This document shows, one piece after another, positions 5,443-57,119 of a stretch of DNA of 57,119 nt. This DNA is from an uncultured Aquiluna sp. (lineage in GTDB: Bacteria > Actinomycetota > Actinomycetes > Actinomycetales > Microbacteriaceae): the NCBI GenBank assembly GCA_964553455.1, contig CAZKLA010000002.1:1-57119 (forward strand), read 5' to 3'. Under the pieces are notes generated by a model. It did not search any database and was not told where the DNA came from. It saw only the letters and a program-made list of their open reading frames with translations. Numbering within the stretch: the stretch's first letter is position 1; every line of letters begins with the position of its first letter. Position numbers and translations under genes: made by a program.

Positions 5443-6582
5443 ATGGCAGAAGAGATTCTAAAGAATCAGCCTTCAGAGTCAGGAGAGTATGGCGATCCAA
5501 ACCCAGGTCTATATCAGGGTCAGGGTGCAGTCGCTAACCTTGGCATCGGAGGCACAGATCCAGTAGTTGGTGGAGATCCATGGGGAACCCCAGGAAACAT
5601 TCCAAATGCTAACTACGGAGTAACGACAGGCCCAAACGCAGTTAACCCAACTGGCGTACCTGGCGGTATTCTAAATCCCGAACAAGCCCGTCGTTTCATC
5701 GACTATGTTTGGGACGCAACAGTTCTCGCCCAAGATGGTCGTAGAGTTACAATGCGTGCAAACACCATTGAACTTGAGAAGGTCAACGTAGGCGAGCGTG
5801 TTATTCGCGCTGCTGCACAGGCACTTGGCGAGTACACAAATGCAGGCGCAACATTCACAAAGGTAGAACTTACCACAAAGAAGATCCGTTTGGACTGGGA
5901 GGTTTCAACAGAGGCACTTGAGGACAACATCGAAGGTGCTGCTCTTGAGGACCACCTCGTTCGTCTTATGACAAACGCTTTTGGTAATGACCTTGAGGAT
6001 CTTGCCATTAATGGCAACGGAGGTGTTGATCCATTCCTCGGAATCATGAACGGTTTCGTTAACCAGGTTAAGACTTCTGGTGATGCACATGAGGCAGTGG
6101 TCGATGACTCCCTTGGTTGGACACCACAGGTAATGCAGGAGTTGATTTACGCTCTCCCACGCAAGTACCGTGCAATCAAGTCAGGTCTAAAGTTCTACGC
6201 TGGTACAGATGTTTTCGCAAGCATCGTTGAGAAGAACGGAACTCTCGCTGACGCAATCGCAGAGGCATTTGCTGGCAACCCAGCAGGTACTCCTGCAAAC
6301 CGTCAGGCCTACCTCAATGGACAGGGACAGACATTCGGTGGTGCTCGCACTACCCGCGTCCTTGGCATTGACGTTCAGGAAGTTCCTTACTACCCAGCAG
6401 ATTTCGTAGATCTCACATTCCCACAGAACCGCGTATGGGGCTTCCAGCGCGATATTACTGTGAACCGTGAGTACAAGCCAAAGAAGGATACAATTGAGTA
6501 CACCATCTTTGTCCGTTTCGGAATCACATGGGAAGAACTTGACGCTGTTGCATTCGCTGACACATCAGCCGCAACTTCATGA
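5443..6582 (+). CDS. Major capsid protein (HK97 fold)
   Basis: GILNPEQARRFID, ELTTKKIRL..EVSTEALEDNIEG, DLEDLAING; strong RBS AGGAGGTG; host-like codon bias. Confidence 0.93.
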   Translation: MAEEILKNQPSESGEYGDPNPGLYQGQGAVANLGIGGTDPVVGGDPWGTPGNIPNANYGVTTGPNAVNPTGVPGGILNPEQARRFIDYVWDATVLAQDGRRVTMRANTIELEKVNVGERVIRAAAQALGEYTNAGATFTKVELTTKKIRLDWEVSTEALEDNIEGAALEDHLVRLMTNAFGNDLEDLAINGNGGVDPFLGIMNGFVNQVKTSGDAHEAVVDDSLGWTPQVMQELIYALPRKYRAIKSGLKFYAGTDVFASIVEKNGTLADAIAEAFAGNPAGTPANRQAYLNGQGQTFGGARTTRVLGIDVQEVPYYPADFVDLTFPQNRVWGFQRDITVNREYKPKKDTIEYTIFVRFGITWEELDAVAFADTSAATS

Positions 6583-9898: not shown

Positions 9899-10570
9899 AT
9901 GGCATATACCCGTGGTGATTCAAAGCAGATTATCGTAGGCGCAGCAGCGCTCTTCGTATCAAAGACTGCTGAATTTGATCCAACCAACACAAGCCCTGCT
10001 CTACCAGACTTCGTTGCAGGAACATCATACCGTGAGACACTTTCAGGCTCAAACGTAGTTCGCAACGTTGGTTACACCATGAATGGTTTGGAACTTCAGT
10101 TCCAGCCAGACTTCGGTGAGGTTCAGGTCGATCAGTTGCTTGACGTTGCAAAGTTGTACAAGCAGGGTATGCAGGTTAATCTTGCAACCGCATTTGCAGA
10201 GGCAACTCTAGAGAACCTTCTCGTAGCAATTGCAGCCCCAACATCCTCACTTGCTAAGGATGTTAAGATGGACAACCCAATCGAAACAGGCACAACCAAC
10301 TTCGCTGACGTACTTGAAATCAAGTCAGGCGAACTTGGCGAATGTCCTGTAGAGCGCGGTATCGTTGCAGTAGGACCAGGAACTGGTGACTGTGCAGCAG
10401 GTTCATCAATCGAAAGAATCTATGTTGCTTACCGTGCGCTCTCTATTGAGAACGTTACAGTGTCTGCAAAGCGTGACGAGGCTTCAATGTTTGAAGTTTC
10501 CTTCCGTTTGCTCCCAGCCAACAACGGTTCTTACGGAAAGATTGTTGATCGTCTAGTACCATCTTCATGA
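9899..10570 (+). CDS. Major tail (tube) protein
   Basis: NVGYTMNGLELQFQP, VDQLLD, FAEATLENL tube motifs; RBS GAGGTG; upstream TATAAT 9836-9841. Confidence 0.88.
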   Translation: MAYTRGDSKQIIVGAAALFVSKTAEFDPTNTSPALPDFVAGTSYRETLSGSNVVRNVGYTMNGLELQFQPDFGEVQVDQLLDVAKLYKQGMQVNLATAFAEATLENLLVAIAAPTSSLAKDVKMDNPIETGTTNFADVLEIKSGELGECPVERGIVAVGPGTGDCAAGSSIERIYVAYRALSIENVTVSAKRDEASMFEVSFRLLPANNGSYGKIVDRLVPSS

Positions 10571-10598
10571 TAAGACCCCTATAATTTAATAGAGATTG

Positions 10599-10630
10599 AC
10601 CCCCGTCAGGCTTGACCTGCGGGGGCTTTC
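10599..10630 (+). terminator. Hairpin terminator after major tail gene
   Basis: CCCCCGTCAGG-CTTGA-CCTGCGGGGG followed by CTTTCT. Confidence 0.6.
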
Positions 10631-10669
10631 TCATGCTATAATTTATGCACCAAGACAAGGAAGGTAATA

Positions 10670-11005
10670 ATGGCTACAACAGTTTATGAAACAGCAGAGA
10701 TTGAACTTATGGATGGCACAAAGATTAAGATGCGTCCACTAAAGATTTCTCTTCTTCGTGATTTTATGAAGAAGTTCGACACCATTGTTGATGTTGCAAG
10801 CAGCAACGTAGAATCAATGGATGTTCTCGTTGAATGTGCCATGATTGCTATGAAGCAGTATGGTCCAGAGTATGCAGAAGACAGAGAAAAGTTTGAGGAT
10901 GCTGCTGATATCAAGATGGTCTACAAGATCATTGAGGTCGCTTCTGGCATCAAGTTGGACTCTGAGGGAAACGAACTGACGGCGGGACAACTTGGCAAGA
11001 GTTAG
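10670..11005 (+). CDS. Tail assembly chaperone (G)
   Basis: Between tail tube and tape measure; slippery site near 3' end; TGCTATAAT at 10634-10642. Confidence 0.85.
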   Translation: MATTVYETAEIELMDGTKIKMRPLKISLLRDFMKKFDTIVDVASSNVESMDVLVECAMIAMKQYGPEYAEDREKFEDAADIKMVYKIIEVASGIKLDSEGNELTAGQLGKS

Positions 11006-11370
11006 ATCTCGCCACTCTTGAATCAGAAGTATTCTTAATTGGTAAATGGAAAGATTTTGAGGAGTTAGAGCAAAGTATTTCCATGCCAGAACTTCTTGCT
11101 ATTCTAGAGGCACACAGAGAAGAAAGACAGAGAGAGCATAGGTTCCTTGCAGCAATACAAGGAATCGATCTTGATAAGTCTTCTGGTGGCTCAAAGGGGC
11201 AAAAAGAATGGGAAGATCTTAAGTCAAGAGTATTTAGTGGTGGTCAGGCCACCGACTCAAATGATATTCTTTCTCTTCAAGGGCAAAACGCTACAAAGGC
11301 TGGATTTGGTATAGGCAACGGAATAGAATATACTAATGCCAAAGACCTTGAAAATCCTTCATGGACATAG
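10966..11370 (+). CDS. Tail assembly chaperone frameshift extension (GT, -1 frame)
   Basis: G GGA AAC at 10966-10972; the -1 frame stays open into ORF 11083..11370. Confidence 0.85.
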   Translation, partial: GKRTDGGTTWQELDLATLESEVFLIGKWKDFEELEQSISMPELLAILEAHREERQREHRFLAAIQGIDLDKSSGGSKGQKEWEDLKSRVFSGGQATDSNDILSLQGQNATKAGFGIGNGIEYTNAKDLENPSWT

Positions 11371-24751: not shown

Positions 24752-25357
24752 ATGGCATGGAATTCAGGAGGGGCACCATGGGAATCCTCTGGCAATACAG
24801 AATTCGATAGGCAGGCTGGAAAAGGAGCCTTCTGGCCCTATGGCGTAGGCAATTATGGGCCACCATCAGGAGCAAGTGTGCCCCCAGCGCCTCCACCCCC
24901 ACCACCTCCACCTCCAATACCACCGTTACCAACATTTAACAGGATGACAGCGCCTGATAAAAACATCAAGCCTGCTCCAACAGACATTATTCAATTTGAT
25001 GATAACGCAATAGATATTGCGCTTATACAAGATTTGTTGTATGAAGATATTGGTGCAGTAGAGTTGGCAAACATTTCTAGGACAGACCTCATTGACGGGC
25101 AAGAAGTTTTATACTCTCCTATTCGTAATCTTTCTTCAGTTAGAAGAGAGTTTAATCCAAATAACATTATTGCAACATCATATTCTACAGACTATTTTTC
25201 TAGATTTGGAATTGATCTAGATTCAAGAGGGGTATACGAACCATATTTTGATGAAGATGGAAACCTTGTTATAGAGGTGGAAACTGTTAATGACGGAGAA
25301 GAGATACAAGTACAAATTCTCTCCAGTGGTACAATTAACATAATAGAGGAATTATGA
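24752..25357 (+). CDS. Tail-module protein with polyproline tract
   Basis: VPPAPPPPPPPPPIPPLP; embedded among tail genes. Confidence 0.7.
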   Translation: MAWNSGGAPWESSGNTEFDRQAGKGAFWPYGVGNYGPPSGASVPPAPPPPPPPPPIPPLPTFNRMTAPDKNIKPAPTDIIQFDDNAIDIALIQDLLYEDIGAVELANISRTDLIDGQEVLYSPIRNLSSVRREFNPNNIIATSYSTDYFSRFGIDLDSRGVYEPYFDEDGNLVIEVETVNDGEEIQVQILSSGTINIIEEL

Positions 25358-34208: not shown

Positions 34209-34931
34209 ATGCCAAATATTTATTTTGAAGAACTCTTTGATGAACTTGGATGCCCAAAGCCAACACCAGCAGCACAGTCACTTCCAAGTTGGTACAAAGA
34301 TATGCCAAGGTTCTTTGCTCCAAATGATCAACATCTAGATTATATTAGAGACTTAGGTACAATCAGAGACTGTCCAGCAGTCAATGATGCAATGTTTGCA
34401 GGCTATACACTATACCTACCTGGGGATGTATATATAGATGCAACAGGAAAGCAGGTGGAATATAATACTGGAAGTTTCGGTATTGGATCAAGGATAGAAG
34501 GAGCCAACTTTGATTTTGTTGTAGCCCATGATCCGCTGGCAACAAAGGGATATCAATCCATGTTTACATTTCACGAACAAACATTAAAGTGGCAACCTTT
34601 CTGGGGGGTAAGAACAGATGAAGGATATAGCACAATGTTTATGCATCCTTTTCATAGAAACGACTTGCCATTCTATTCAGTAACTGCTATAGTTGATACC
34701 GACAAGTTTGCTACTAGAGATCCTTATGCTTTCTTTATAAAGAAAGGATTTAAGGGAGTTATCCATCGTGGCACACCAATCTTGCAAGTCATTCCTTTTA
34801 AGAGAGATGATTGGCAGATGCAGATAGTAGAGCCAGACGCTAAAGATTTTCACAAAAATAGACAGCAAACACAAAGCGTATTTAAGCAACCATATAAGAG
34901 ACTATTTTGGCAAAGGAAGAAGTTTAATTAA
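34209..34931 (+). CDS. Hypothetical protein (CPAV.D family)
   Basis: LPSWYK, CPAVND, IVDTDKF, GTPILQVIPFKR; resembles ORF 42572. Confidence 0.7.
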   Translation: MPNIYFEELFDELGCPKPTPAAQSLPSWYKDMPRFFAPNDQHLDYIRDLGTIRDCPAVNDAMFAGYTLYLPGDVYIDATGKQVEYNTGSFGIGSRIEGANFDFVVAHDPLATKGYQSMFTFHEQTLKWQPFWGVRTDEGYSTMFMHPFHRNDLPFYSVTAIVDTDKFATRDPYAFFIKKGFKGVIHRGTPILQVIPFKRDDWQMQIVEPDAKDFHKNRQQTQSVFKQPYKRLFWQRKKFN

Positions 34932-42291: not shown

Positions 42292-42575
42292 TGGGGCGTC
42301 GCAAGAAGTATGTTAGTCCTATTCAAAACAAATTTCATCGTGAGCAATTCTTTACGTTGGAAAGCGGAAGGGTAATTGAGCACGGAGAAGTAATTAAGAT
42401 TACTGGAGAGCATGGCTCAAAATTTAGATTTCTTGAGCATGTCACTAACATAGAAACTAACGTTGACTGGATTGATTGCTTTGAGTTGCGTCAAGGAATA
42501 GCATCTGGATGGAGATCATTTAGGTGCGACAGAATAAAGCCACTACCTAAAAAGCGTAGGCCAAGGTCAGCATGA
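42291..42575 (+). CDS. Hypothetical protein (SH3-like beta barrel)
   Basis: GEVIKITGE.G..FRF...WIDC...RSFR.DRI. Confidence 0.65.
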   Translation: MGRRKKYVSPIQNKFHREQFFTLESGRVIEHGEVIKITGEHGSKFRFLEHVTNIETNVDWIDCFELRQGIASGWRSFRCDRIKPLPKKRRPRSA

Positions 42576-43291
42576 GCGATCATGTAGTAGTTTATTGGGC
42601 AAACATCCCCGATGATGATTTAGATTGGGCAATTCTTTTTGAAGAGCCATCCCCTTTGATTCAGGAGTTGGTGAACAATAAGAATAAAAACAATCCAGAC
42701 AATAATCTATTGCGCTGTCCAGCAGTAACCGATCTATTTAAAAATGTTTTTGTAATCAAGAATCCATTAGAGTCTTCTGCCTCATTTGTTATAGAAGACG
42801 GAATGGTTTCAAGAGAAATGAATTCCAACGATAGTCGCTGGGTTGTCAATAGGCCACCTAGTTTTACTAATCAATTGCTTGCAATGTACCGCCATCCAAT
42901 AATTTTCTTTTCTGAAACTGATATTGAAATAATGATGACAGATCCTTATTTTTCAAAAGCCCAGCATAAGTCATGGGGATCTATTGTGCCTGGAATTTTT
43001 AGTTGTAGTTCATGGTTTAGGCCTATTCAAATAGAGTTTAATGTGTGGGATAACACCAATAATCTTTATCTAGAAAAAGATGAGCCTCTTGCATATATAA
43101 AATTTATGACCAACAAAAAAGTGATACTCAAAAGGTTTACCATGACAGAAGCGCTTATCAGTCAAGCAAAGATATGTAGTAGCGCTGGAAGGTGGGAGCC
43201 AAAAATCTCTCTTGCAAAGAGATATCAAAGATTTAGGGCAACAAAGAGGGATAAGTTTGTTATTCAAGAAATAAAGAATAACCTAGTGTGA
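42572..43291 (+). CDS. Hypothetical protein (CPAV.D family)
   Basis: RCPAVTD, IVPG.F..SWFRP, DEPLAYIKF. Confidence 0.7.
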   Translation: MSDHVVVYWANIPDDDLDWAILFEEPSPLIQELVNNKNKNNPDNNLLRCPAVTDLFKNVFVIKNPLESSASFVIEDGMVSREMNSNDSRWVVNRPPSFTNQLLAMYRHPIIFFSETDIEIMMTDPYFSKAQHKSWGSIVPGIFSCSSWFRPIQIEFNVWDNTNNLYLEKDEPLAYIKFMTNKKVILKRFTMTEALISQAKICSSAGRWEPKISLAKRYQRFRATKRDKFVIQEIKNNLV

Positions 43292-49147: not shown

Positions 49148-49398
49148 TTTATACTCCAGAGGTCAGCGCTGCCATTAGGTCAATACCTATGCCAGTTGAG
49201 ATGACTGTTGATATTGTCGATTACGGAGCCTATCTTGGTATTAGGTTCTACGAAAGTGAATGGGCACACTTGTCTGAATCTGAGCGCATGAAGATGGCTA
49301 TATATTTTCAGGCAGTAAGAAAGATGCTAGAGAAAGGTGGAGTAAATTCCACCTTAGATCCAATTTATGATAAGCCTGGGGTGCAGCAGTTAGGATGA
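49144..49398 (+). CDS. Hypothetical protein
   Basis: GTG 49144 after GGAGG RBS, in frame with ORF 49105. Confidence 0.65.
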   Translation: MIYTPEVSAAIRSIPMPVEMTVDIVDYGAYLGIRFYESEWAHLSESERMKMAIYFQAVRKMLEKGGVNSTLDPIYDKPGVQQLG

Positions 49399-50432
49399 GT
49401 ATATTTATTTCTATCGCGTCATATCGTGATCTAGAGTTAACCAAGACTGTTAGAAGTCTTATTGATAATGCCGATAATCCACAGGATTTGCATTTTGGCG
49501 TTGTAGATCAAGATCATAGAAATAAATGGGCCGACCTTTCTTTTGTGCCAAATCTCAAGCATGTAAAGATTCATTTCAAGGACGCAAAGGGTGCTGGATA
49601 TGCAAGAAAACTTGCAACAGAACTCTATGATGGTCAGGATTTCTTTTTCCAGACTGATTCACACATGCGCTTTGCAAAAGGATGGGACACCAAACTTAAG
49701 CAAATGTATGAGTGGTGCTCAAGGGATGCAGGGACTGACAAGGTTATTTTAAGTCAGTTCCCTGCACCCTTTGAGGTTCTAACTGATGGAAACGATTACT
49801 ACATCAAGGGTGACCCAGACTTCTGGGATGAACCATCATGGACTTCAGTGGTAAACACATACTACGGAGCATGGGCAGGCAATCGTGAAAAGATTAAAGA
49901 TTTTTCTAAGCCACATAAATCACATACAGTATTGGGCGCACTTATCTTTTCACGCGGTCAAATCGCATTAGACATTCCCTACGACGAAAGAATATCTTTC
50001 ATGGGAGAAGAACTTTGTTATGCAATTAGAGCATACACAAGAGGATATAGTATATACGCACCACATGAAATGCTGGCATGGCATTTTTATAAAAGAAATG
50101 ACAGGCCAAAAATCTGGGGAGACAAAAAGTTAGAATGGTTTAAGATAGAGAAAAATTCTAAAGACGTTCAGCGCGATGTGCTGCTTGGAATTGAGCAAGG
50201 TGTGTATGGCGTGGCAGACAAGAAACTTTATAAGCAATATCAAAATATGATAGGCATCGACTTTGAAAAGTTTTATAGTGAAGAGAAAGAGCCAACTAAA
50301 GATCTTGATTGGATATCTGAAGAGATAACCTTTGATTTTGAACCTGCGGTTAATTCTGGTCCATGTCTAAACAATGAACACAGCATCTGTACGGTAGATG
50401 TTTGCGTTTGTGATTGTCATAAGGAGAAGTGA
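49395..50432 (+). CDS. GT60-like polypeptide GlcNAc-transferase (Skp1 Gnt1 family)
   Basis: IFISIASYRD, AKGAGYAR, QTDSHMRF..GWD, PYD..F.GEE...RAYTRGY, WHFY.R. Confidence 0.8.
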   Translation: MSIFISIASYRDLELTKTVRSLIDNADNPQDLHFGVVDQDHRNKWADLSFVPNLKHVKIHFKDAKGAGYARKLATELYDGQDFFFQTDSHMRFAKGWDTKLKQMYEWCSRDAGTDKVILSQFPAPFEVLTDGNDYYIKGDPDFWDEPSWTSVVNTYYGAWAGNREKIKDFSKPHKSHTVLGALIFSRGQIALDIPYDERISFMGEELCYAIRAYTRGYSIYAPHEMLAWHFYKRNDRPKIWGDKKLEWFKIEKNSKDVQRDVLLGIEQGVYGVADKKLYKQYQNMIGIDFEKFYSEEKEPTKDLDWISEEITFDFEPAVNSGPCLNNEHSICTVDVCVCDCHKEK

Positions 50433-51067
50433 TGAGACAGCAAATAGTGCTACCTTGGAGAGATGCTGGGTGTTCGTACAGAAGGCATCATTTTGATTTT
50501 CTTCTTGACTATTATTCCAAAGAATTTGATGTTATTGTTGCTGACAACGATGGTGATTTTAATAGGTCTGCTGCTAGAAATGTGGGAGTAGAAAAGACAC
50601 AAAGCGAGGTTGCAGTAATTATTGACGCAGACAACTATATCCCATATTCACAAATTCATGAGGCAATAAAAGTTGCTTCAAGATCAGATAGATTGGTTAA
50701 GCCATTTCAGTGGTTTGGATATCTAACTGAGGAATCTACTGCACTGTTCTATGATTTTATTGATAGCCCTATAACAGATTTTGAGCCAACATACATCGAC
50801 CCTCCAATTGATGATTTTACTGGTGGCGCATATGTTATGAAAAAGTCTTTGTGGCAACTGCTTGGCGGCATGGACGAAGGTTTTATTGGTTGGGGTGCCG
50901 AAGACGATGCATTTCATCTTTTATGTAAGAAAAAAGGAGTTAGGGTAAGATATATAGAAGGATACGATTATCATCTATATCATCCTGCACACAGAGTAAC
51001 ATCTGAATTTAATTATGAAAAACTAATGAGAGAGTATGTAAATGGGAACAAGTCATCCAGAAACTAA
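50429..51067 (+). CDS. GT-A glycosyltransferase (GT7/GT2-like)
   Basis: PWR, FNRSAARNVG, IDAD, GGMDEGFIGWGAEDD, HLYH. Confidence 0.85.
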   Translation: MMRQQIVLPWRDAGCSYRRHHFDFLLDYYSKEFDVIVADNDGDFNRSAARNVGVEKTQSEVAVIIDADNYIPYSQIHEAIKVASRSDRLVKPFQWFGYLTEESTALFYDFIDSPITDFEPTYIDPPIDDFTGGAYVMKKSLWQLLGGMDEGFIGWGAEDDAFHLLCKKKGVRVRYIEGYDYHLYHPAHRVTSEFNYEKLMREYVNGNKSSRN

Positions 51068-51554
51068 GCCTTGGATCTTAGAAAAGATCAGGGAATATAA
51101 GCCAAAGACCATCCTTGATGTTGGTGCTGGCTCAGGAACATATGCAACAATGTTGAGGAAGAATGGATATACGAGAGCAGCAATAGATGCTGTAGAAGTT
51201 TGGACTCCCTATATCAAGGAGTTTAATCTTCACACAAAGTATAGAAGTGTCTATGCTGTAGACATTCGTGATTTTGATAGATACAATCATGATCTCGTAA
51301 TCTTTGGAGATATTCTTGAACACATGAGTGTAGAAGATGCGCTTAAGGTTTGGGACACAGCATCAAAATATTGTGCTCATGCAGTTATATCTATTCCAAT
51401 TATTCATTATCATCAGCACGCCATTAATGGAAACCCTTATGAAGAGCATGTAAAAGAAGATTGGTCACATCAAGAAGTTCTTGATACCTTTCCTAACATT
51501 GTAGATTCTTGGCAAGGTGACATTACAGGTGCATATTGGGCAAACTTTAGGTAA
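51042..51554 (+). CDS. Class I SAM-dependent methyltransferase
   Basis: ILDVGAGSG, DAVE, GDILEH. Confidence 0.85.
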   Translation: MGTSHPETKPWILEKIREYKPKTILDVGAGSGTYATMLRKNGYTRAAIDAVEVWTPYIKEFNLHTKYRSVYAVDIRDFDRYNHDLVIFGDILEHMSVEDALKVWDTASKYCAHAVISIPIIHYHQHAINGNPYEEHVKEDWSHQEVLDTFPNIVDSWQGDITGAYWANFR

Positions 51555-51584
51555 ATGCTATAATCTCACCAAAAGGAGAGATCC

Positions 51585-51791
51585 ATGTATGTTGCAAAAC
51601 TGGTTAAAAATAAATTAATATTTCATGCAACTGTTTTAGAAAAGCACTGGTCTAAAGAAATGCTTTCTAATAGCGTAAATATTATTTCAGAAAAAAGTTT
51701 TTTATCAAGGCGTTCGGCACACAAGTGGATTAATGCTGAAATAACAAGAGACTTGTTTATGAAAAAAAGATTGGAGATAATTGATGAATGA
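51585..51791 (+). CDS. Hypothetical protein
   Basis: TGCTATAAT at 51556-51564; RBS AAGGAG. Confidence 0.6.
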   Translation: MYVAKLVKNKLIFHATVLEKHWSKEMLSNSVNIISEKSFLSRRSAHKWINAEITRDLFMKKRLEIIDE

Positions 51792-51948
51792 AAATGAAGT
51801 AGTTATTCAAACACTAAACGCTATGCTTCAGCGTCATGCAAAAGTAGTTCAAGGATACGAGGTTGAGATTGCCAACCTAACCGCAGAGGTATACAGGCTA
51901 AAGTCACAGGTTGAAGAGTCAAAAACTAATGATTCTTTAGATTCGTGA
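51784..51948 (+). CDS. Small coiled-coil protein, 54 aa (not in ORF track)
   Basis: MNENEVVIQ...YEVEIANLTAEVYRLKSQVEE; GGAG RBS. Confidence 0.55.
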   Translation: MNENEVVIQTLNAMLQRHAKVVQGYEVEIANLTAEVYRLKSQVEESKTNDSLDS

Positions 51949-51980
51949 TAAAATAGAATAAAACACAAGGAGCGGATAAT

Positions 51981-52133
51981 GTGGAAGATATCAATGAGGA
52001 TGCATCAGATTATGTTTGCATTACACATCAGTCCTATACTCCTTGCGAAGAAGGCGAATTTCATTTAATATCAAATTGGCTTGCCGATGTTAAAAGAATA
52101 GAAAGACTAATAGAAAGAAAAAGAAATGTTTAA
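51981..52133 (+). CDS. Small hypothetical protein, 50 aa (not in ORF track)
   Basis: GTG start after AAGGAG; CITH...PC...H possible metal site. Confidence 0.45.
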   Translation: MEDINEDASDYVCITHQSYTPCEEGEFHLISNWLADVKRIERLIERKRNV

Positions 52134-52146
52134 AAAGGAGAAGAGC

Positions 52147-52851
52147 ATGAGTTGGAAACCAGTTGCTGGCGTTACTGTCTTGAGAGATCAGATTAACAAG
52201 CGTTGGCCTGATAGAGATAAGCGCAGTGACGGAATTTTGGGTGATGCCGCCCATGCTGCTAGACAGAGCGATCACAATCCAGATTCAAGGGGTCTAGTTC
52301 ACGCTCTTGACATTGATGAAGATCTTAGAGGATCTAAAAATGACAACGTATGGTTAGCAGATCAGATTATTGCATATGCTCGTATGCGTAGATCTGGATC
52401 TAATAGACTCAAGTATGTAGTTTACGAAAATGAAATTGCTAGCGGAACATATGCAAAGCATTTCTGGACATGGCGTGGAGACAACTATGGTCATGAGATT
52501 CATATGCATATTAGTTTTACTACACAGGGCGAGTCTGATGCGACACCATTCGATATTCCAATTCTTACAGACGGCAAGGGTGATGTTTGGGATGGTCACG
52601 TTCCATTTTTTGACATTCTTCAGGATGCCATTGCTCTAGGTGCTGCAAACAAGGCAACTTGGAGATTGGCTTGCAGATTAAAGGAACTTGGTTTTTATGA
52701 GGGTCAAGTACAGCCAGAAGGAAGGCAGGCATACCCAAAGAATGCTATTCGTAAGATGCAAGATTACATGGGATGGGAACGCCGCGACTATGATCAAAAG
52801 ACCCACAGAGCCATTTGGAAAGAACTAAAAATTTCCAATAATGAACCATGA
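52147..52851 (+). CDS. Endolysin (Zn-peptidase, M15-like) with C-terminal cell-wall-binding-like domain
   Basis: DGILGD.AH..R.SDHNPD...ALDID...H..HMHISF. Confidence 0.75.
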   Translation: MSWKPVAGVTVLRDQINKRWPDRDKRSDGILGDAAHAARQSDHNPDSRGLVHALDIDEDLRGSKNDNVWLADQIIAYARMRRSGSNRLKYVVYENEIASGTYAKHFWTWRGDNYGHEIHMHISFTTQGESDATPFDIPILTDGKGDVWDGHVPFFDILQDAIALGAANKATWRLACRLKELGFYEGQVQPEGRQAYPKNAIRKMQDYMGWERRDYDQKTHRAIWKELKISNNEP

Positions 52852-52907
52852 CCTTGATCACATTCCCCTAGAGTTTGTTTGACTATCCAACAAAATTTTG
52901 ATACGAT
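52847..52907 (+). promoter_or_regulatory. CRP-like site plus SigA promoter
   Basis: CATGA-CCTTGA-TCACA (52847-52862), then TTGACT-N17-TACGAT (52879-52907). Confidence 0.45.
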
Positions 52908-52936
52908 AGTATTACAAACCCAAAAGGAGGAATTTT

Positions 52937-53089
52937 ATGAAGGCTTTTTCACGCCTTTTTGCGAATGTTTTCACAAGATCCACAAGATCAAATGACAACG
53001 TTTATCGTGAATGGGATAGGATGAGGTCAAAGGCAATGTCACCAAGCGAGTTGTCTGAGATCGATGCAATTTTTTCTAGATCTCTATGA
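52937..53089 (+). CDS. Small 50-aa protein (not in ORF track)
   Basis: Strong RBS AAGGAGG; MKAFSRLF...REWDRMRSKAMSPSELSEIDAIFSRSL. Confidence 0.7.
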   Translation: MKAFSRLFANVFTRSTRSNDNVYREWDRMRSKAMSPSELSEIDAIFSRSL

Positions 53090-53092
53090 TCG

Positions 53093-53138
53093 TTGACATA
53101 ACCCATCGTCAAGCACTATAATTGGCGGTGGGTTAGTC
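53093..53138 (+). promoter_or_regulatory. SigA promoter overlapped by hairpin
   Basis: TTGACA-N18-TATAAT; arms at 53095-53112 and 53122-53138. Confidence 0.65.
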
Positions 53139-53159
53139 ATTTCTACAGTTAGGATAATA

Positions 53160-53648
53160 ATGCAAACTTTTGTTCCTTATGCAGATTTTAATCAGTCTGC
53201 CGCTGCCCTAGACAACAAGAGGCTTAATAAGCAACTTCTTGAAGGTCGTCAAATCTATAGCATTCTTGTATCGGGTCGTAGGTCAGGCGCTTGGGTCAAT
53301 CACCCCGCTGTTAAGATGTGGCGCAACTATGACATGGCTCTTTTTGAGTATCTGGTAGCAATGAAGGACGAATGCAATGATCGTGGTATTGCCACTGAAA
53401 AGAACTGGAACGCCATTCTTGAGTTACACAATAACAACTGGAATCGTGGCAGTAAGGTCGTAATGCCTCCGTGGTGGAATGATAATCGTGTGCATGAGTC
53501 TCATCGCAATAATTTGTACGTCAAGGATAGCGATTATTACTCCATGTTTTCTAACGCCAATCGTATTGCCTGTTGTGATAAGTGTAACTATTTTTGGCCT
53601 ACCCATACCCTGTTTTACAATGCAGAGTTTCTAGGTTATGTAGTATAA
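53160..53648 (+). CDS. Pyrimidine-dimer DNA glycosylase (DenV/MSMEG_6728-like)
   Basis: MQTFVPY.DF..SA..LD.KRL.KQ..E..QI, HPAVKMW, SHR.NL. Confidence 0.8.
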   Translation: MQTFVPYADFNQSAAALDNKRLNKQLLEGRQIYSILVSGRRSGAWVNHPAVKMWRNYDMALFEYLVAMKDECNDRGIATEKNWNAILELHNNNWNRGSKVVMPPWWNDNRVHESHRNNLYVKDSDYYSMFSNANRIACCDKCNYFWPTHTLFYNAEFLGYVV

Positions 53649-53658
53649 TAATTCCGTT

Positions 53659-54486
53659 ATGCTACACGCCTTAAATGTACATGATGAGATGCCACCCAAG
53701 GGTCCGATAAGAATATGGGACGCGGGTGTGCAGTGGGCCGATCTAGAAAAACAAAAAGGAACTTACGATTGGTCAAAACTTGATGCAATGATTGACGCAG
53801 CGGGCAAAAGATCTATTATGCTAGTTCTTGGTCATCCCCCAGCATGGGCTGCAAAGGGCGGTCCAGATGGCCGTCAAGCGGCATGGATGCCTGCGGGAAG
53901 CAACAGGCCTCCAGTAACTATGGCGGCTTGGAGAAGGCATGTAGAGGCTGTAGTGACCAGATACAAAGGGAGGGTGGCTCTATACCAAATATGGAATGAG
54001 CCAGCAGACAAAAGATTTTATTCTGGAGACTTCTCTGAAATTGGAACAATATGCAAGGCTGCATATCAGGTTATTAAAAAGATAGATAAAAATGCAAGAG
54101 TTGTTTCTCCTCCCTTGCAACCAAGGCGTCAGGCTGGGTGGCACAGAAGAGGAAAGGCAATCGTAAAGTCTTTGAAGGATGCTGGCTATCCTTTTGATAT
54201 TTGGGCTATGCACATTTATCCACAAAAGGGTGAAGGTGTAGAGGGCTTCATCAGAGACTGCAAGTTAGTTATTGATGAACTAGAAAAGCATCCAAAAAAT
54301 AATTGGTTGTGGATAACTGAAACAAATTACAATTTAGTTGGAGAAGGAAATCCATATCCTGTAAACAAGCAAAACCTTCTTATAAAGCAATCAGAAGATG
54401 CTTGCAGAATGCTTGACATTACCCGCATTTATTGGTATTCTTATATGACAAACGAGCCACATCTATTTGGCATTATTGAGTTCTAA
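53659..54486 (+). CDS. Clan GH-A glycoside hydrolase (GH39/GH5-like)
   Basis: W..LE..KG.YDWSKLD, QIWNEP acid/base, MHIY, WITE nucleophile. Confidence 0.8.
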   Translation: MLHALNVHDEMPPKGPIRIWDAGVQWADLEKQKGTYDWSKLDAMIDAAGKRSIMLVLGHPPAWAAKGGPDGRQAAWMPAGSNRPPVTMAAWRRHVEAVVTRYKGRVALYQIWNEPADKRFYSGDFSEIGTICKAAYQVIKKIDKNARVVSPPLQPRRQAGWHRRGKAIVKSLKDAGYPFDIWAMHIYPQKGEGVEGFIRDCKLVIDELEKHPKNNWLWITETNYNLVGEGNPYPVNKQNLLIKQSEDACRMLDITRIYWYSYMTNEPHLFGIIEF

Positions 54487-54494
54487 GGAGAACA

Positions 54495-54680
54495 ATGACA
54501 CTTACCGATGAGCAGGAGAAGGCTCTACGAGATCTTGCTTCTGCATCAGATGCACTACGTCGTACTTCTGGAGGAAAGGCAGGCGACGCTGCTGAGAAGA
54601 AGTATGGAGAGGCGTACACACGTTGCTACGTCCTTGGTCTAAAGCAATACAAGATGCAGGTATGTAAGACTACTCGTTGA
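54495..54680 (+). CDS. Hypothetical protein
   Basis: RBS AAGGAG; 61 aa ORF. Confidence 0.65.
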   Translation: MTLTDEQEKALRDLASASDALRRTSGGKAGDAAEKKYGEAYTRCYVLGLKQYKMQVCKTTR

Positions 54681-54715
54681 CAAATGCCTTGCCCCTAGGC
54701 TACAATATAGGGGCA
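54677..54715 (+). promoter_or_regulatory. tRNA promoter overlapped by hairpin
   Basis: TTGACA-N18-TACAAT; TGCCCCTA/TAGGGGCA flank the -10. Confidence 0.6.
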
Positions 54716-54718
54716 CAC

Positions 54719-54792
54719 GCGACTGTTGCATAATGGTAGTGCCTCTGCCTTCCAAGCAGATAGTGCCAGTTCGATTCTGGTCAGTCGCTCCA
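54719..54792 (+). tRNA. tRNA-Gly (UCC)
   Basis: GCGACTG/CAGTCGC acceptor, TCTGC-CTTCCAA-GCAGA, TTCGA T-loop, U73, encoded CCA. Confidence 0.93.
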
Positions 54793-54793
54793 A

Positions 54794-54866
54794 GCCTCCA
54801 TAACTCAGGGGACAGAGTAGGACACTTCTAATGTCAAGGTCGCAGGTTCGAATCCTGCTGGGGGCG
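54794..54866 (+). tRNA. tRNA-Arg (UCU)
   Basis: GCCTCCA/TGGGGGC acceptor, GACA-CTTCTAA-TGTC, GCAGG-TTCGAAT-CCTGC. Confidence 0.9.
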
Positions 54867-54877
54867 CAAGGAGAACA

Positions 54878-55522
54878 ATGAAACACTACAACGTAGTAAT
54901 TGCCACACCAGGCTCCATGATTACTGCTGCTTATGTCAGAAGTCTGACAGAAACATTGCAAACTCTTAATGAATTAAATATATCTTGGCATTATGTAAAT
55001 TATGAGTCTACATATATAAGATATGCTAGAGAGTCAATTGTTAATTACGGAAATCCAGAGGATTTGCACAACCAGATACCGTTTGACAATCAGTTTTCAT
55101 ACGACAAGATAATGTGGATTGATTCAGATATATCTTGGAAACCTAAAGACTTTCTTAATCTTTATTATTCTGATAGAGATATCATCGCTGGAATATATAT
55201 GATATTTGGTGGAATGATTTCTGCGTCAGTTGACGGTAACAACTTTTTGCATCCCAATCAAGTTCCTCAAAGCAGGGAGTTTCAGGTATCCACTACTGGT
55301 TTTGGATTTGTTTGTGTAAAAAATGGGGTATTTGAAAATATGCCAAAGCCTTGGTTCGATAGCGGCATATTTGAAAAAGATGGAAAGATAATTACTACCT
55401 TAGGTGAAGATAATTCTTGGTGTGTCCGTGCCCGTGAATCTGGATTTAAAATATGGATTGATCCCAATGTTAAGGTGGTACACAATAAAACAGTGCCACT
55501 TGCTTGGCCTGAAAATCTCTGA
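54878..55522 (+). CDS. GT-A fold glycosyltransferase
   Basis: VIATP, YARE, MWIDSDI, TGFGFVCVK.GVFE, GEDNSWC.R, V.H. Confidence 0.8.
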   Translation: MKHYNVVIATPGSMITAAYVRSLTETLQTLNELNISWHYVNYESTYIRYARESIVNYGNPEDLHNQIPFDNQFSYDKIMWIDSDISWKPKDFLNLYYSDRDIIAGIYMIFGGMISASVDGNNFLHPNQVPQSREFQVSTTGFGFVCVKNGVFENMPKPWFDSGIFEKDGKIITTLGEDNSWCVRARESGFKIWIDPNVKVVHNKTVPLAWPENL

Positions 55523-55549
55523 TACAATACTACCGATTAAGGAGAAACG

Positions 55550-56158
55550 ATGTACATTAATGATATTGAGTTGCAAGAAGGGGAGTATGTTCTTCCTGCT
55601 GTAAAGGTAATAGACAACGCTATAGATAATTCAGATAGGTTGATTGAGATTGCCAACAGCATTCCAGATGGATGGGAGCCCTCCCTAGTTGGTAGTGACA
55701 GAAACGTTGATCAGGATATTCGTAGATCTAATTCATTCCCATTTAACGTTCATTTTGATAACCCACTTGAGTTTTTTGCAACGGCACAGAAGATCTATCT
55801 TTATGCTCAACTATATGCACAGGAGAATGGCGTAATGTTTACACACATGGAGCCAATCTCAATGCTTGAATATCTTGCAGGAGATGGATTCTATAAGCCA
55901 CATCATGACTTTGGACCAGATATTCCCCGTAACATTTCTGCACTTCTATATTTGAACGATGTAGAGGATGGCGGAGAGACATATTTTGATAGATTTGATT
56001 TTTCTGTCAAGCCAAAGGCGGGAAGACTAGTTCTTTTCCCCTCTAATTTCCCTTACTCACATGAGGCGCGACACCCAATTTCTGGCAACAAATATGTTTT
56101 GGTAACTTGGTTTGGTATGCCTCTTGATCCATCGATCTTTGGAAACTACTACAGGTGA
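55550..56158 (+). CDS. Prolyl 4-hydroxylase-like 2OG-Fe(II) oxygenase
   Basis: R.S, Y..G..Y.PHHD, R.ISALLYLND..DGGET.F, PKAG..VLFP, HEA.....G.KY....W. Confidence 0.85.
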   Translation: MYINDIELQEGEYVLPAVKVIDNAIDNSDRLIEIANSIPDGWEPSLVGSDRNVDQDIRRSNSFPFNVHFDNPLEFFATAQKIYLYAQLYAQENGVMFTHMEPISMLEYLAGDGFYKPHHDFGPDIPRNISALLYLNDVEDGGETYFDRFDFSVKPKAGRLVLFPSNFPYSHEARHPISGNKYVLVTWFGMPLDPSIFGNYYR

Positions 56159-56162
56159 TAAT

Positions 56163-56741
56163 GTGAGCAGAATAGAATTAGTTGAGAAAAATGATGAATT
56201 GGGGTTTAGGATTTATCGATCTAATGAGATCGTAGAATACAAAGACGAGTTTATTAGACAGATTGAAAGTTCAAGAAGATCTTTGAAGGCAATTTATCCA
56301 GACATTGACTCTACATGGGGATACAATGTCTACAATCTTTTTGCCATATCTTCTGGCTATGAGTTGTTCTATAATCTTTATCAAGATTTAAAAACAATTA
56401 GCAGAGAGTTTTTGCAAGAAGACGGTCCCCTTTGGATGCAGTCATGGGCAAACTATCAGTGGGAAAATGATGTGCTAGATTGGCATACGCATTTTGACTG
56501 GAGATGCCACGGCTATATTTCTATTGAGCCACATGATTCTGTCACAATGTTTGATGGCTTTGATATTGTTAACGATGTTGGAAATATTTATATTGGACCA
56601 ACAGATGTTCCTCACAAGGTGTATATTAAAAAGCCCCTTGACTCACCAAGAATTACATGTGGCTTTGATATTGCAGATGCATCAACACTTCTTGATATGC
56701 AAGAAAGAGATGCGGTAAATATTTCCTTTATGCCAATTTAG
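56163..56741 (+). CDS. Putative 2OG-Fe(II)/cupin oxygenase
   Basis: SWAN, LDWHTH, HGYI, HKV, RITCGFD DSBH motifs; GTG start inferred. Confidence 0.55.
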   Translation: MSRIELVEKNDELGFRIYRSNEIVEYKDEFIRQIESSRRSLKAIYPDIDSTWGYNVYNLFAISSGYELFYNLYQDLKTISREFLQEDGPLWMQSWANYQWENDVLDWHTHFDWRCHGYISIEPHDSVTMFDGFDIVNDVGNIYIGPTDVPHKVYIKKPLDSPRITCGFDIADASTLLDMQERDAVNISFMPI

Positions 56742-57058: not shown

Positions 57059-57067
57059 TTTTGTGTT

Positions 57068-57119
57068 GGTTCTGTAGAGCAGCGGAGTGCTCGCCACCCT
57101 GTCACGGTGGAGGTCGTGG
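57068..57119 (+). tRNA. tRNA-Asp (GUC), truncated by window end
   Basis: GGTTCTG acceptor 5' strand, GAGC/GCTC D stem, CCACC-CTGTCAC-GGTGG anticodon arm. Confidence 0.85.

What the first reader, a model, noticed from the sequence alone, without database searches (positions are those of the whole stretch)
49395..56741. Candidate phage-encoded prolyl-hydroxylation and hydroxyproline O-glycosylation pathway
Seen: within about 7 kb lie a GT60/Gnt1-like GlcNAc-transferase (49395), a GT7-like transferase (50429), a methyltransferase (51042), a third GT-A enzyme (54878), a prolyl-4-hydroxylase-like enzyme with the P4H-type Lys 2OG ligand (55550) and a second DSBH oxygenase (56163). Established: in Dictyostelium and Toxoplasma, P4H (PhyA) hydroxylates a Skp1 proline, GT60 Gnt1 adds GlcNAc and other transferases extend the chain; some mycobacteriophages glycosylate their virions with their own GTs. 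Inference: this phage may build a methyl-capped glycan on hydroxyproline of virion or host proteins, a eukaryote-like and O2-dependent route I do not know to be described in phages.
Basis: partly seen in the sequence, partly recalled or inferred. Interest (0 to 1): 0.8.

Follow-up and report, generated by a model that had tools for sequence, protein, structure and literature searches.

The report
Phage mucin-type virion sugar-coating primer
A clade of uncultured freshwater phages keeps, as a fixed gene, an enzyme predicted to fold like the ones that start mucin sugar chains in eukaryotes, and it likely sugar-coats serines of their own particle proteins, while the nearby proline hydroxylase is an optional extra that most relatives lack.

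Summary
All six enzymes are real. The window is 57 kb of a ~105-kb freshwater actino-siphophage. The single hydroxyproline-glycan pathway is not supported. The GT60 gene is a clade-core gene at a fixed slot, whereas the P4H sits in a separate, optional unit. P4H is absent from 4 of 4 near-complete GT60 relatives and from cultured phage XacN1, which has a GT60 and glycosylated virions. P4H-like genes are commoner in the sister clade that lacks this GT60.

Best reading (0.6): Che8-like virion O-glycosylation. The next gene is a Che8 gp109 homologue. Capsid and tail-tube proteins end in Ser/Thr in 14 of 14 clade members. The GT60 (ppGalNAc-T fold) would replace the missing gp110 primer. Against: Ser-ended sister phages show no clear GT60.

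A Hyp route survives as a minor option (about 0.12): a tail protein carries an extensin-like polyproline run.

The scan reported Che8-like cassettes on other DNA before; a look-up with this GT60 sequence found nothing. Verdict: new variant of a known kind.

The parts
49395..50432 (+). GT60/PF11397 glycosyltransferase, ppGalNAc-T fold; predicted priming polypeptide HexNAc-transferase; Cys/His-rich C-terminal tail in one subclade
   Evidence: fixed slot after WhiB and the 97-aa gene in 35 of 39 distinct close loci
50429..51067 (+). GT7C-like transferase, homologue of mycobacteriophage Che8 gp109; predicted extender; ORF overlaps GT60 stop
   Evidence: 28% over 186 aa, E 4e-19; same phrog_1721; present in 11 of 29 loci
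51042..51554 (+). SAM methyltransferase, predicted glycan cap
   Evidence: 8 of 29 loci; Che8 gp108 also has a methyltransferase domain
5443..6582 (+). Major capsid protein ending in Ser after a variable linker; candidate acceptor
9899..10570 (+). Major tail (tube) protein ending in Ser; candidate acceptor
24752..25357 (+). Tail-module protein with N-terminal extensin-like Pro/Ser/Thr extension (run of 8 Pro); candidate acceptor and candidate P4H substrate
   Evidence: position between two tail genes
54677..54706 (+). Sigma-70-like promoter (11 of 12) heading tRNA-Gly, tRNA-Arg and the optional cassette
   Evidence: consensus match only
54878..55522 (+). GT-A enzyme (phrog_1574, cyanophage homologues, A197-like); first gene of optional cassette
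   Evidence: 2 of 16 loci
55550..56158 (+). P4H-like Fe/2OG oxygenase, Lys-ligand type; optional
   Evidence: absent from 4 of 4 near-complete relatives
56163..56741 (+). Second DSBH oxygenase-like protein (phrog_2696; H-x-H rather than H-x-D); optional
   Evidence: 2 of 16 loci

Best explanation
The GT60 enzyme likely primes O-linked sugar chains on Ser/Thr of the phage's own virion proteins, with no need for hydroxyproline. It is predicted to move a HexNAc (GlcNAc or GalNAc, untested) from a host UDP-sugar onto the C-terminal Ser/Thr of the capsid and tail-tube subunits, and possibly onto the Pro/Ser/Thr-rich tail linker. The swappable genes behind it (here a Che8 gp109 homologue and a methyltransferase) would extend and methyl-cap the chain. 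The GT-A/P4H/oxygenase trio is a separately transcribed accessory cassette. Its P4H likely hydroxylates a peptidyl proline (the polyproline tail linker or a host protein such as EF-Tu) and is dispensable. Shown: families, predicted folds, gene order, distribution, C-terminal residues. Inferred: donor, acceptor, order of steps.
For: Predicted fold is ppGalNAc-T and the SYRD, DSH, GEE and distal His motifs are invariant or nearly so. GT60 includes Ser/Thr mucin-type initiators (PMC8724618). GT60 is the only transferase common to the four near-complete genomes; the slot behind it holds changing GTs and methyltransferases. The neighbour is a gp109 homologue and no gp110 homologue was found. Che8 capsid and tail proteins end in Ser, and glycans sit at these C-termini (PMC12619734). 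Both proteins end in Ser/Thr in 14 of 14 clade pairs; the last capsid residue has entropy 0.66 bits against 2.3-2.9 for the five before it. The two termini agree in 53 of 56 sister-clade phages, null mean 27, maximum 48 in 5000 simulations. XacN1 ORF334 is PF11397, XacN1 virions hold at least two Schiff-positive glycoproteins, and no P4H-profile hit was found.
Against: No biochemistry. Ser-ended sister genomes G103, G105, G106 (79, 82, 67% complete) have no PF11397 hit, only a 24-25-bit ORF in two. Ala-ended G055, G089, G091, G101 carry distant GT60 paralogues. So GT60 and Ser ends coincide in one clade only, a single contrast. Independent-pair tests were not significant (p 0.22 and 0.25), and block recombination explains part of the concordance. 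Capsid proteins of GT60 jumbo phages do not end in Ser. Portal (13 of 21) and one neck gene (15 of 23) also often end in Ser/Thr. XacN1 has a second GT, and its glycoproteins were not identified in what I could read.
Confidence: 0.6

Rival explanations
1. Optional hydroxyproline glycosylation: where the cassette is present, P4H hydroxylates the polyproline run of the tail protein at 24752, and the co-inherited GT-A (54878) or the GT60 glycosylates the Hyp, as in plant extensins or Skp1.
For: Closest fold is algal P4H bound to (Ser-Pro)5 and viral collagen P4H. 79 of 120 homologues of the tail protein have runs of 5 or more Pro. Longest runs are 8, 12, 7, 4 in P4H-positive phages against 3, 3, 2, 3, 6, 6, 5, 1, 2, 5 in P4H-negative ones, uncorrected p 0.014. 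GT-A, P4H and the second oxygenase travel together in the window, L003 and L005.
Against: The run-length test ignores kinship, and 8 of its 14 rows (2 positive, 6 negative) got their P4H state only from matching longest-contig lengths across. Runs of 5-6 Pro occur without a close P4H. GT-A homologues occur without P4H in G002, and P4H occurs without this GT-A in L011 and L036. GT60 is kept in genomes with no P4H.
Confidence: 0.12
2. The GT60 block modifies host molecules (surface proteins, envelope glycans or cytoplasmic proteins), for example to block superinfection, and the Ser ends have another cause.
For: The block lies beside WhiB, away from head and tail genes. Family members carry many sugar-nucleotide, GT and sulfotransferase genes. 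Envelope roles are proposed for phage GT clusters (PMC7824862; PMC10202952).
Against: gp109 homology, fixed Ser ends and XacN1 virion glycoproteins. No membrane anchor is apparent in the sequence or model (no dedicated predictor run).
Confidence: 0.15
3. Virions are glycosylated, but GT60 primes only internal Pro/Ser/Thr linkers, and the C-terminal serines are served by a different enzyme or by none.
For: Ser ends persist in sister phages without clear GT60. Jumbo GT60 genes flank Gly/Ser/Thr- and collagen-repeat virion genes, and their capsid proteins lack Ser ends. All 11 clade orthologues of the tail protein have the extension.
Against: In G001 and G004 GT60 and the gp109 homologue are the only GTs detected. 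Similar extensions occur outside the clade.
Confidence: 0.1
4. The oxygenases and transferases hypermodify phage DNA.
For: Phage GTs and 2OG oxygenases are known DNA modifiers (PMC12619734).
Against: Folds match peptide-acting enzymes; no TET/JBP or DNA-GT family hit.
Confidence: 0.03

Closest known systems
Mycobacteriophage virion O-glycosylation (Che8 gp108-110, Corndog, Myrna; Freeman et al. 2023, seen only through citing papers)
   Same: gp109 homologue next to a methyltransferase; capsid and tail-tube proteins ending in Ser; actinobacterial phage
   Different: No homologue of the essential gp110 or of gp108 was found; a GT60/ppGalNAc-T-fold enzyme heads the block and is clade-core
Protist GT60 Golgi polypeptide alpha-GlcNAc-transferases (Dictyostelium, Trypanosoma cruzi) and GT27 ppGalNAc-Ts
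   Same: PF11397, same predicted fold, catalytic motifs kept, Ser/Thr acceptors predicted
   Different: Phage-encoded, no apparent signal anchor, no ricin domain; donor untested
Skp1 pathway PhyA-Gnt1-PgtA (Dictyostelium, Toxoplasma)
   Same: A P4H-fold oxygenase and a GT60 in one genome
   Different: P4H is Lys-type, optional and not co-inherited; no Skp1 substrate; extenders are not GT2/GT74, GT77, GT31 or GT8
Bacillus P4H, Pseudomonas PPHD, PBCV-1 vCPH, Chlamydomonas P4H-1
   Same: Fold and HxD..H..K set; RxS, Tyr and Trp positions align
   Different: About 20-25% identity; substrate unknown; carried on an optional cassette
Xanthomonas jumbo phage XacN1 ORF334
   Same: PF11397 GT60 (27% identity); virion glycoproteins reported
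   Different: Unrelated myovirus; never recognised as GT60 in the passages read; the matching capsid protein of its relative Xoo-sp13 does not end in Ser

Membership tests
GT60 / PF11397 | Profile match above cut-off | tested here: met
   173 bits against cut-off 21
GT60 / PF11397 | GT27-like GT-A fold with DxH and distal His metal site | tested here: met
   metal role of the motif is recalled
GT60 / PF11397 | UDP-GlcNAc transfer to a polypeptide hydroxyl | not testable with these tools
   needs an assay
Skp1-type Hyp glycosylation pathway | P4H obligately present with GT60 | tested here: not met
   0 of 4 near-complete genomes; absent from XacN1
Skp1-type Hyp glycosylation pathway | P4H of PHD/PhyA type | tested here: not met
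   Lys181; Bacillus P4H E 4e-19 against PHD2 E about 1e-3; Dictyostelium PHD fold rank 30
Skp1-type Hyp glycosylation pathway | Glycan on hydroxyproline | not testable with these tools
   needs glycoproteomics
Che8-type virion glycosylation | gp109-family transferase | tested here: met
Che8-type virion glycosylation | gp110-family essential transferase | tested here: not met
   no BLAST, phmmer or hhalign match; window is about half the genome, but complete G001 also lacks it
Che8-type virion glycosylation | Capsid and tail-tube proteins ending in Ser/Thr | tested here: met
   14 of 14 clade pairs; Che8 control
Che8-type virion glycosylation | Glycans on the particle | not testable with these tools
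   uncultured phage
Peptidyl prolyl 4-hydroxylase (collagen/algal/Bacillus type) | HxD..H triad, Lys 2OG ligand, P4H fold | tested here: met
Peptidyl prolyl 4-hydroxylase (collagen/algal/Bacillus type) | Hydroxylates peptidyl proline | not testable with these tools
   needs an assay

The most novel reading that the evidence does not exclude
These phages run two layers. A core mucin-type primer glycosylates Ser/Thr, and an optional oxygen-dependent cassette hydroxylates the extensin-like polyproline linker of a tail protein and glycosylates the hydroxyproline, giving plant-cell-wall-like glycoproteins on a bacteriophage particle.
Probability: 0.12. Interest if true: 0.82.

Novelty: new variant of a known kind. 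Interest (0 to 1): 0.52.

Why it matters
Phage virion glycosylation is established for a few mycobacteriophages. A GT60/ppGalNAc-T-fold primer would be a second, independent way to start it, using the enzyme family thought typical of eukaryotic mucin glycosylation. The concerted Ser/Ala/Tyr switches at capsid and tail-tube ends offer a sequence marker for such modification. A small soluble polypeptide HexNAc-transferase would also be a useful glyco-engineering tool.

Tried and rejected
Obligate P4H-GT60 pathway: rejected on distribution. My P4H profile search is not exhaustive: it missed a PF13640 gene in G033 that one search found, so 0 of 20 large-phage records is an undercount; Xoo-sp13 has a marginal 40-aa hit (E 0.007).

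GT60 as a gp110 homologue: no match. GT60 presence predicting Ser ends across the family: not found. A different GT shared by all Ser-ended sister genomes: none found; a GT4 is in 2, a FkbM methyltransferase and a Stealth-like protein in 3, GT25 in 2 others. Ser ends in GT60 jumbo phages: not found. Independent-pair tests were underpowered.

Sequence searches of PDB with GT60 found nothing. The GTDB scan for the tail protein found nothing. The protein atlas gave no answer. Freeman 2023 was not held. Pfam scans covered only part of the candidate ORFs: 56 of 66 and 65 of 88, 88 of 108, 95 of 100, 106 of 161. No complex prediction, read mapping or RNA-family search was run.
Full report
Setting. 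The window is one whole contig of an assembly, at 40% GC against a median of 54%. It encodes portal, capsid, tape measure, DnaE, RecA, terminase and WhiB. The nearest cultured phages are Streptomyces Stanwilliamsviridae at 42-45% capsid identity. Close relatives are IMG/VR contigs of 100-106 kb. An actinobacterial host is inferred from WhiB (PMC10202952); the freshwater habitat is my inference from the kind of relatives, not a call result.

Observation. All six ORFs exist. 49395 is PF11397 (E 1.6e-50). Its model matches polypeptide GalNAc-transferases at every listed top rank and keeps SYRD, DSH, GEE and His230 (metal role recalled). 55550 is a P4H-fold enzyme with H118, D120, H171 and K181 invariant in 36 of 36 rows. 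It is closest to Bacillus, algal and chlorovirus P4Hs. 54878 is a GT-A with cyanophage homologues and a weak match to PDB A197. 56163 is only weakly an oxygenase. The genes form two trios 3.3 kb apart. The second lies behind its own consensus promoter and two tRNAs.

Co-occurrence. GT60 follows the same 97-aa gene in 35 of 39 distinct close loci. Of 16 loci with 7 kb or more downstream, 4 have the P4H, 2 the GT-A and 2 the second oxygenase. In four genomes 92-100% complete, GT60 is present at 53-76% identity, and P4H is absent by Pfam, tblastn and family profile. The same Pfam search finds the window's gene. Over 50 GT60 records the profile hit 6, though it missed one gene later found by Pfam. 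Conversely, 6 of 80 P4H loci contain any GT60. In the sister clade 0 of 49 loci have GT60 at the slot, yet 18 of 26 long loci carry a P4H-profile hit against 2 of 19 in the GT60 clade. GT60 needs no Hyp: the family includes Ser/Thr mucin-type initiators (PMC8724618).

What GT60 likely does. The gene overlapping its stop codon is a homologue of Che8 gp109 (28% over 186 aa, E 4e-19; both phrog_1721). It is followed by a methyltransferase, as Che8 gp108 carries one. No homologue of gp110, described as essential for capsid glycosylation (PMC12363180), was found. The slot behind GT60 is filled by different GTs and methyltransferases in different phages, as expected for a fixed primer with variable extenders. 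Mycobacteriophage glycans sit at the C-termini of capsid and tail-tube subunits (PMC12619734), and Che8's two proteins end in Ser. Here both end in Ser, and both end in Ser/Thr in 14 of 14 distinct clade pairs, with variable residues just before. Across 70 ingroup pairs 67 agree. In the 56 sister-clade pairs 53 agree, against a simulated null mean of 27 and maximum of 48; one phage has Tyr-Tyr at both ends. Five distant rows (four named, plus G061) were left out of that tree. Independently, cultured XacN1 has a PF11397 gene (ORF334), no P4H-profile hit, and at least two Schiff-positive virion glycoproteins.

Results against this. Independent-pair tests did not reach significance. Some concordance reflects block recombination (L492 and L496 change place between trees). 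Three Ser-ended sister genomes, 67-82% complete, have no PF11397 hit, and four Ala-ended ones carry distant paralogues. GT60 and Ser ends therefore coincide in one clade only. Jumbo-phage capsid proteins end otherwise. Two other structural genes also often end in Ser/Thr. The acceptor is inferred, not shown.

What is left of the Hyp idea. The tail-module protein at 24752 has an extensin-like extension. All 11 clade orthologues examined have a Pro/Ser/Thr-rich extension and 8 sister orthologues printed do not, but more distant sister-type orthologues have their own long repeats. Among 120 homologues, 79 have 5 or more consecutive Pro. Runs are longer in four P4H-positive phages than in ten P4H-negative ones (p 0.014). 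That test ignores kinship, and 8 of 14 states rest on matching contig lengths. The closest P4H structure is bound to (Ser-Pro)5; bacterial relatives act on EF-Tu (PDB titles). A P4H acting on this linker is plausible. If its Hyp is glycosylated, the co-inherited 54878 GT-A is as good a candidate as GT60. I give this 0.12.

Novelty. The system works like Che8-type virion glycosylation but fails the gp110 criterion, so it is a variant with a different primer. It is not a member of the Skp1 pathway. Nine literature searches showed no paper on a phage GT60 or on phage Hyp glycosylation; the library lacks most subscription journals. UniProt already labels such phage proteins as GlcNAc glycosyltransferases. 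Earlier scan notes describe Che8-like cassettes with C-terminal serines on other DNA. I saw them after reaching this reading and did not check them; a look-up with this GT60 found none.

Papers seen. Passages: PMC8724618, PMC12619734, PMC11256854, PMC13445384, PMC12363180, PMC7824862, PMC13033339 (nothing relevant), bioRxiv 10.64898/2026.10.24.761521. Part 1 of 2 of the text: PMC10202952. Passages plus supplement table rows and the Fig. S4 legend (gel image not visible): PMC5852040. Freeman et al. 2023 was not held and is known only through citing papers; its data on acceptor residue, first sugar and gene roles bear on the comparison.

Verdict. Observation confirmed, interpretation partly supported. 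Best explanation: GT60-primed Ser/Thr virion glycosylation (0.6). New variant of a known kind, interest 0.52.

Noticed in passing
L344 (capsid at 10001-11098, tail gene downstream): Both capsid and tail-tube proteins end in Tyr-Tyr where kin have Ser or Ala: a concerted switch to another hydroxyl residue; the contig does not reach the terminase region.
   Followed up: partly
window 50360-50432: GT60 ends in a tail with five Cys and two His, invariant in one subclade and absent in the 305-319-aa forms; possible metal-binding module, low model confidence.
   Followed up: no
window 1-57119 (G000:C2): Phage contig of 40% GC inside an assembly whose median contig is 54% GC; probably misbinned or a free phage. 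Contig C4 (39% GC) has helicase and primase matches and may be another phage.
   Followed up: partly
L041-L080, L359, L694: A second GT60 clade (about 415 aa) in 200-385-kb PolB phages heads variable GT clusters beside collagen-, Gly-rich and YadA-repeat genes.
   Followed up: partly
window 34209-34931 and 42572-43291: Two more accessory proteins of unknown function (phrog_7084, phrog_17480); homologues often sit among oxygenase clusters in relatives.
   Followed up: no
window 53659-54486: GH10/39/42-like glycoside hydrolase, recurrent downstream of GT60 in the clade; could trim glycans or attack the host envelope.
   Followed up: no
L677-L684 (G112, G113): Single sister-type genomes carry three to four distant GT60-like paralogues together with three P4H-like genes; best place to look for a true P4H-GT60 pairing.
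   Followed up: no
window 57067-57119: Truncated tRNA-like sequence with a GTC anticodon at the contig end, not called by ARAGORN.
   Followed up: no
L651-L667: Distant orthologues of the 24752 tail protein carry long Lys-Pro and Thr-Thr-Lys-Pro repeat extensions.
   Followed up: no
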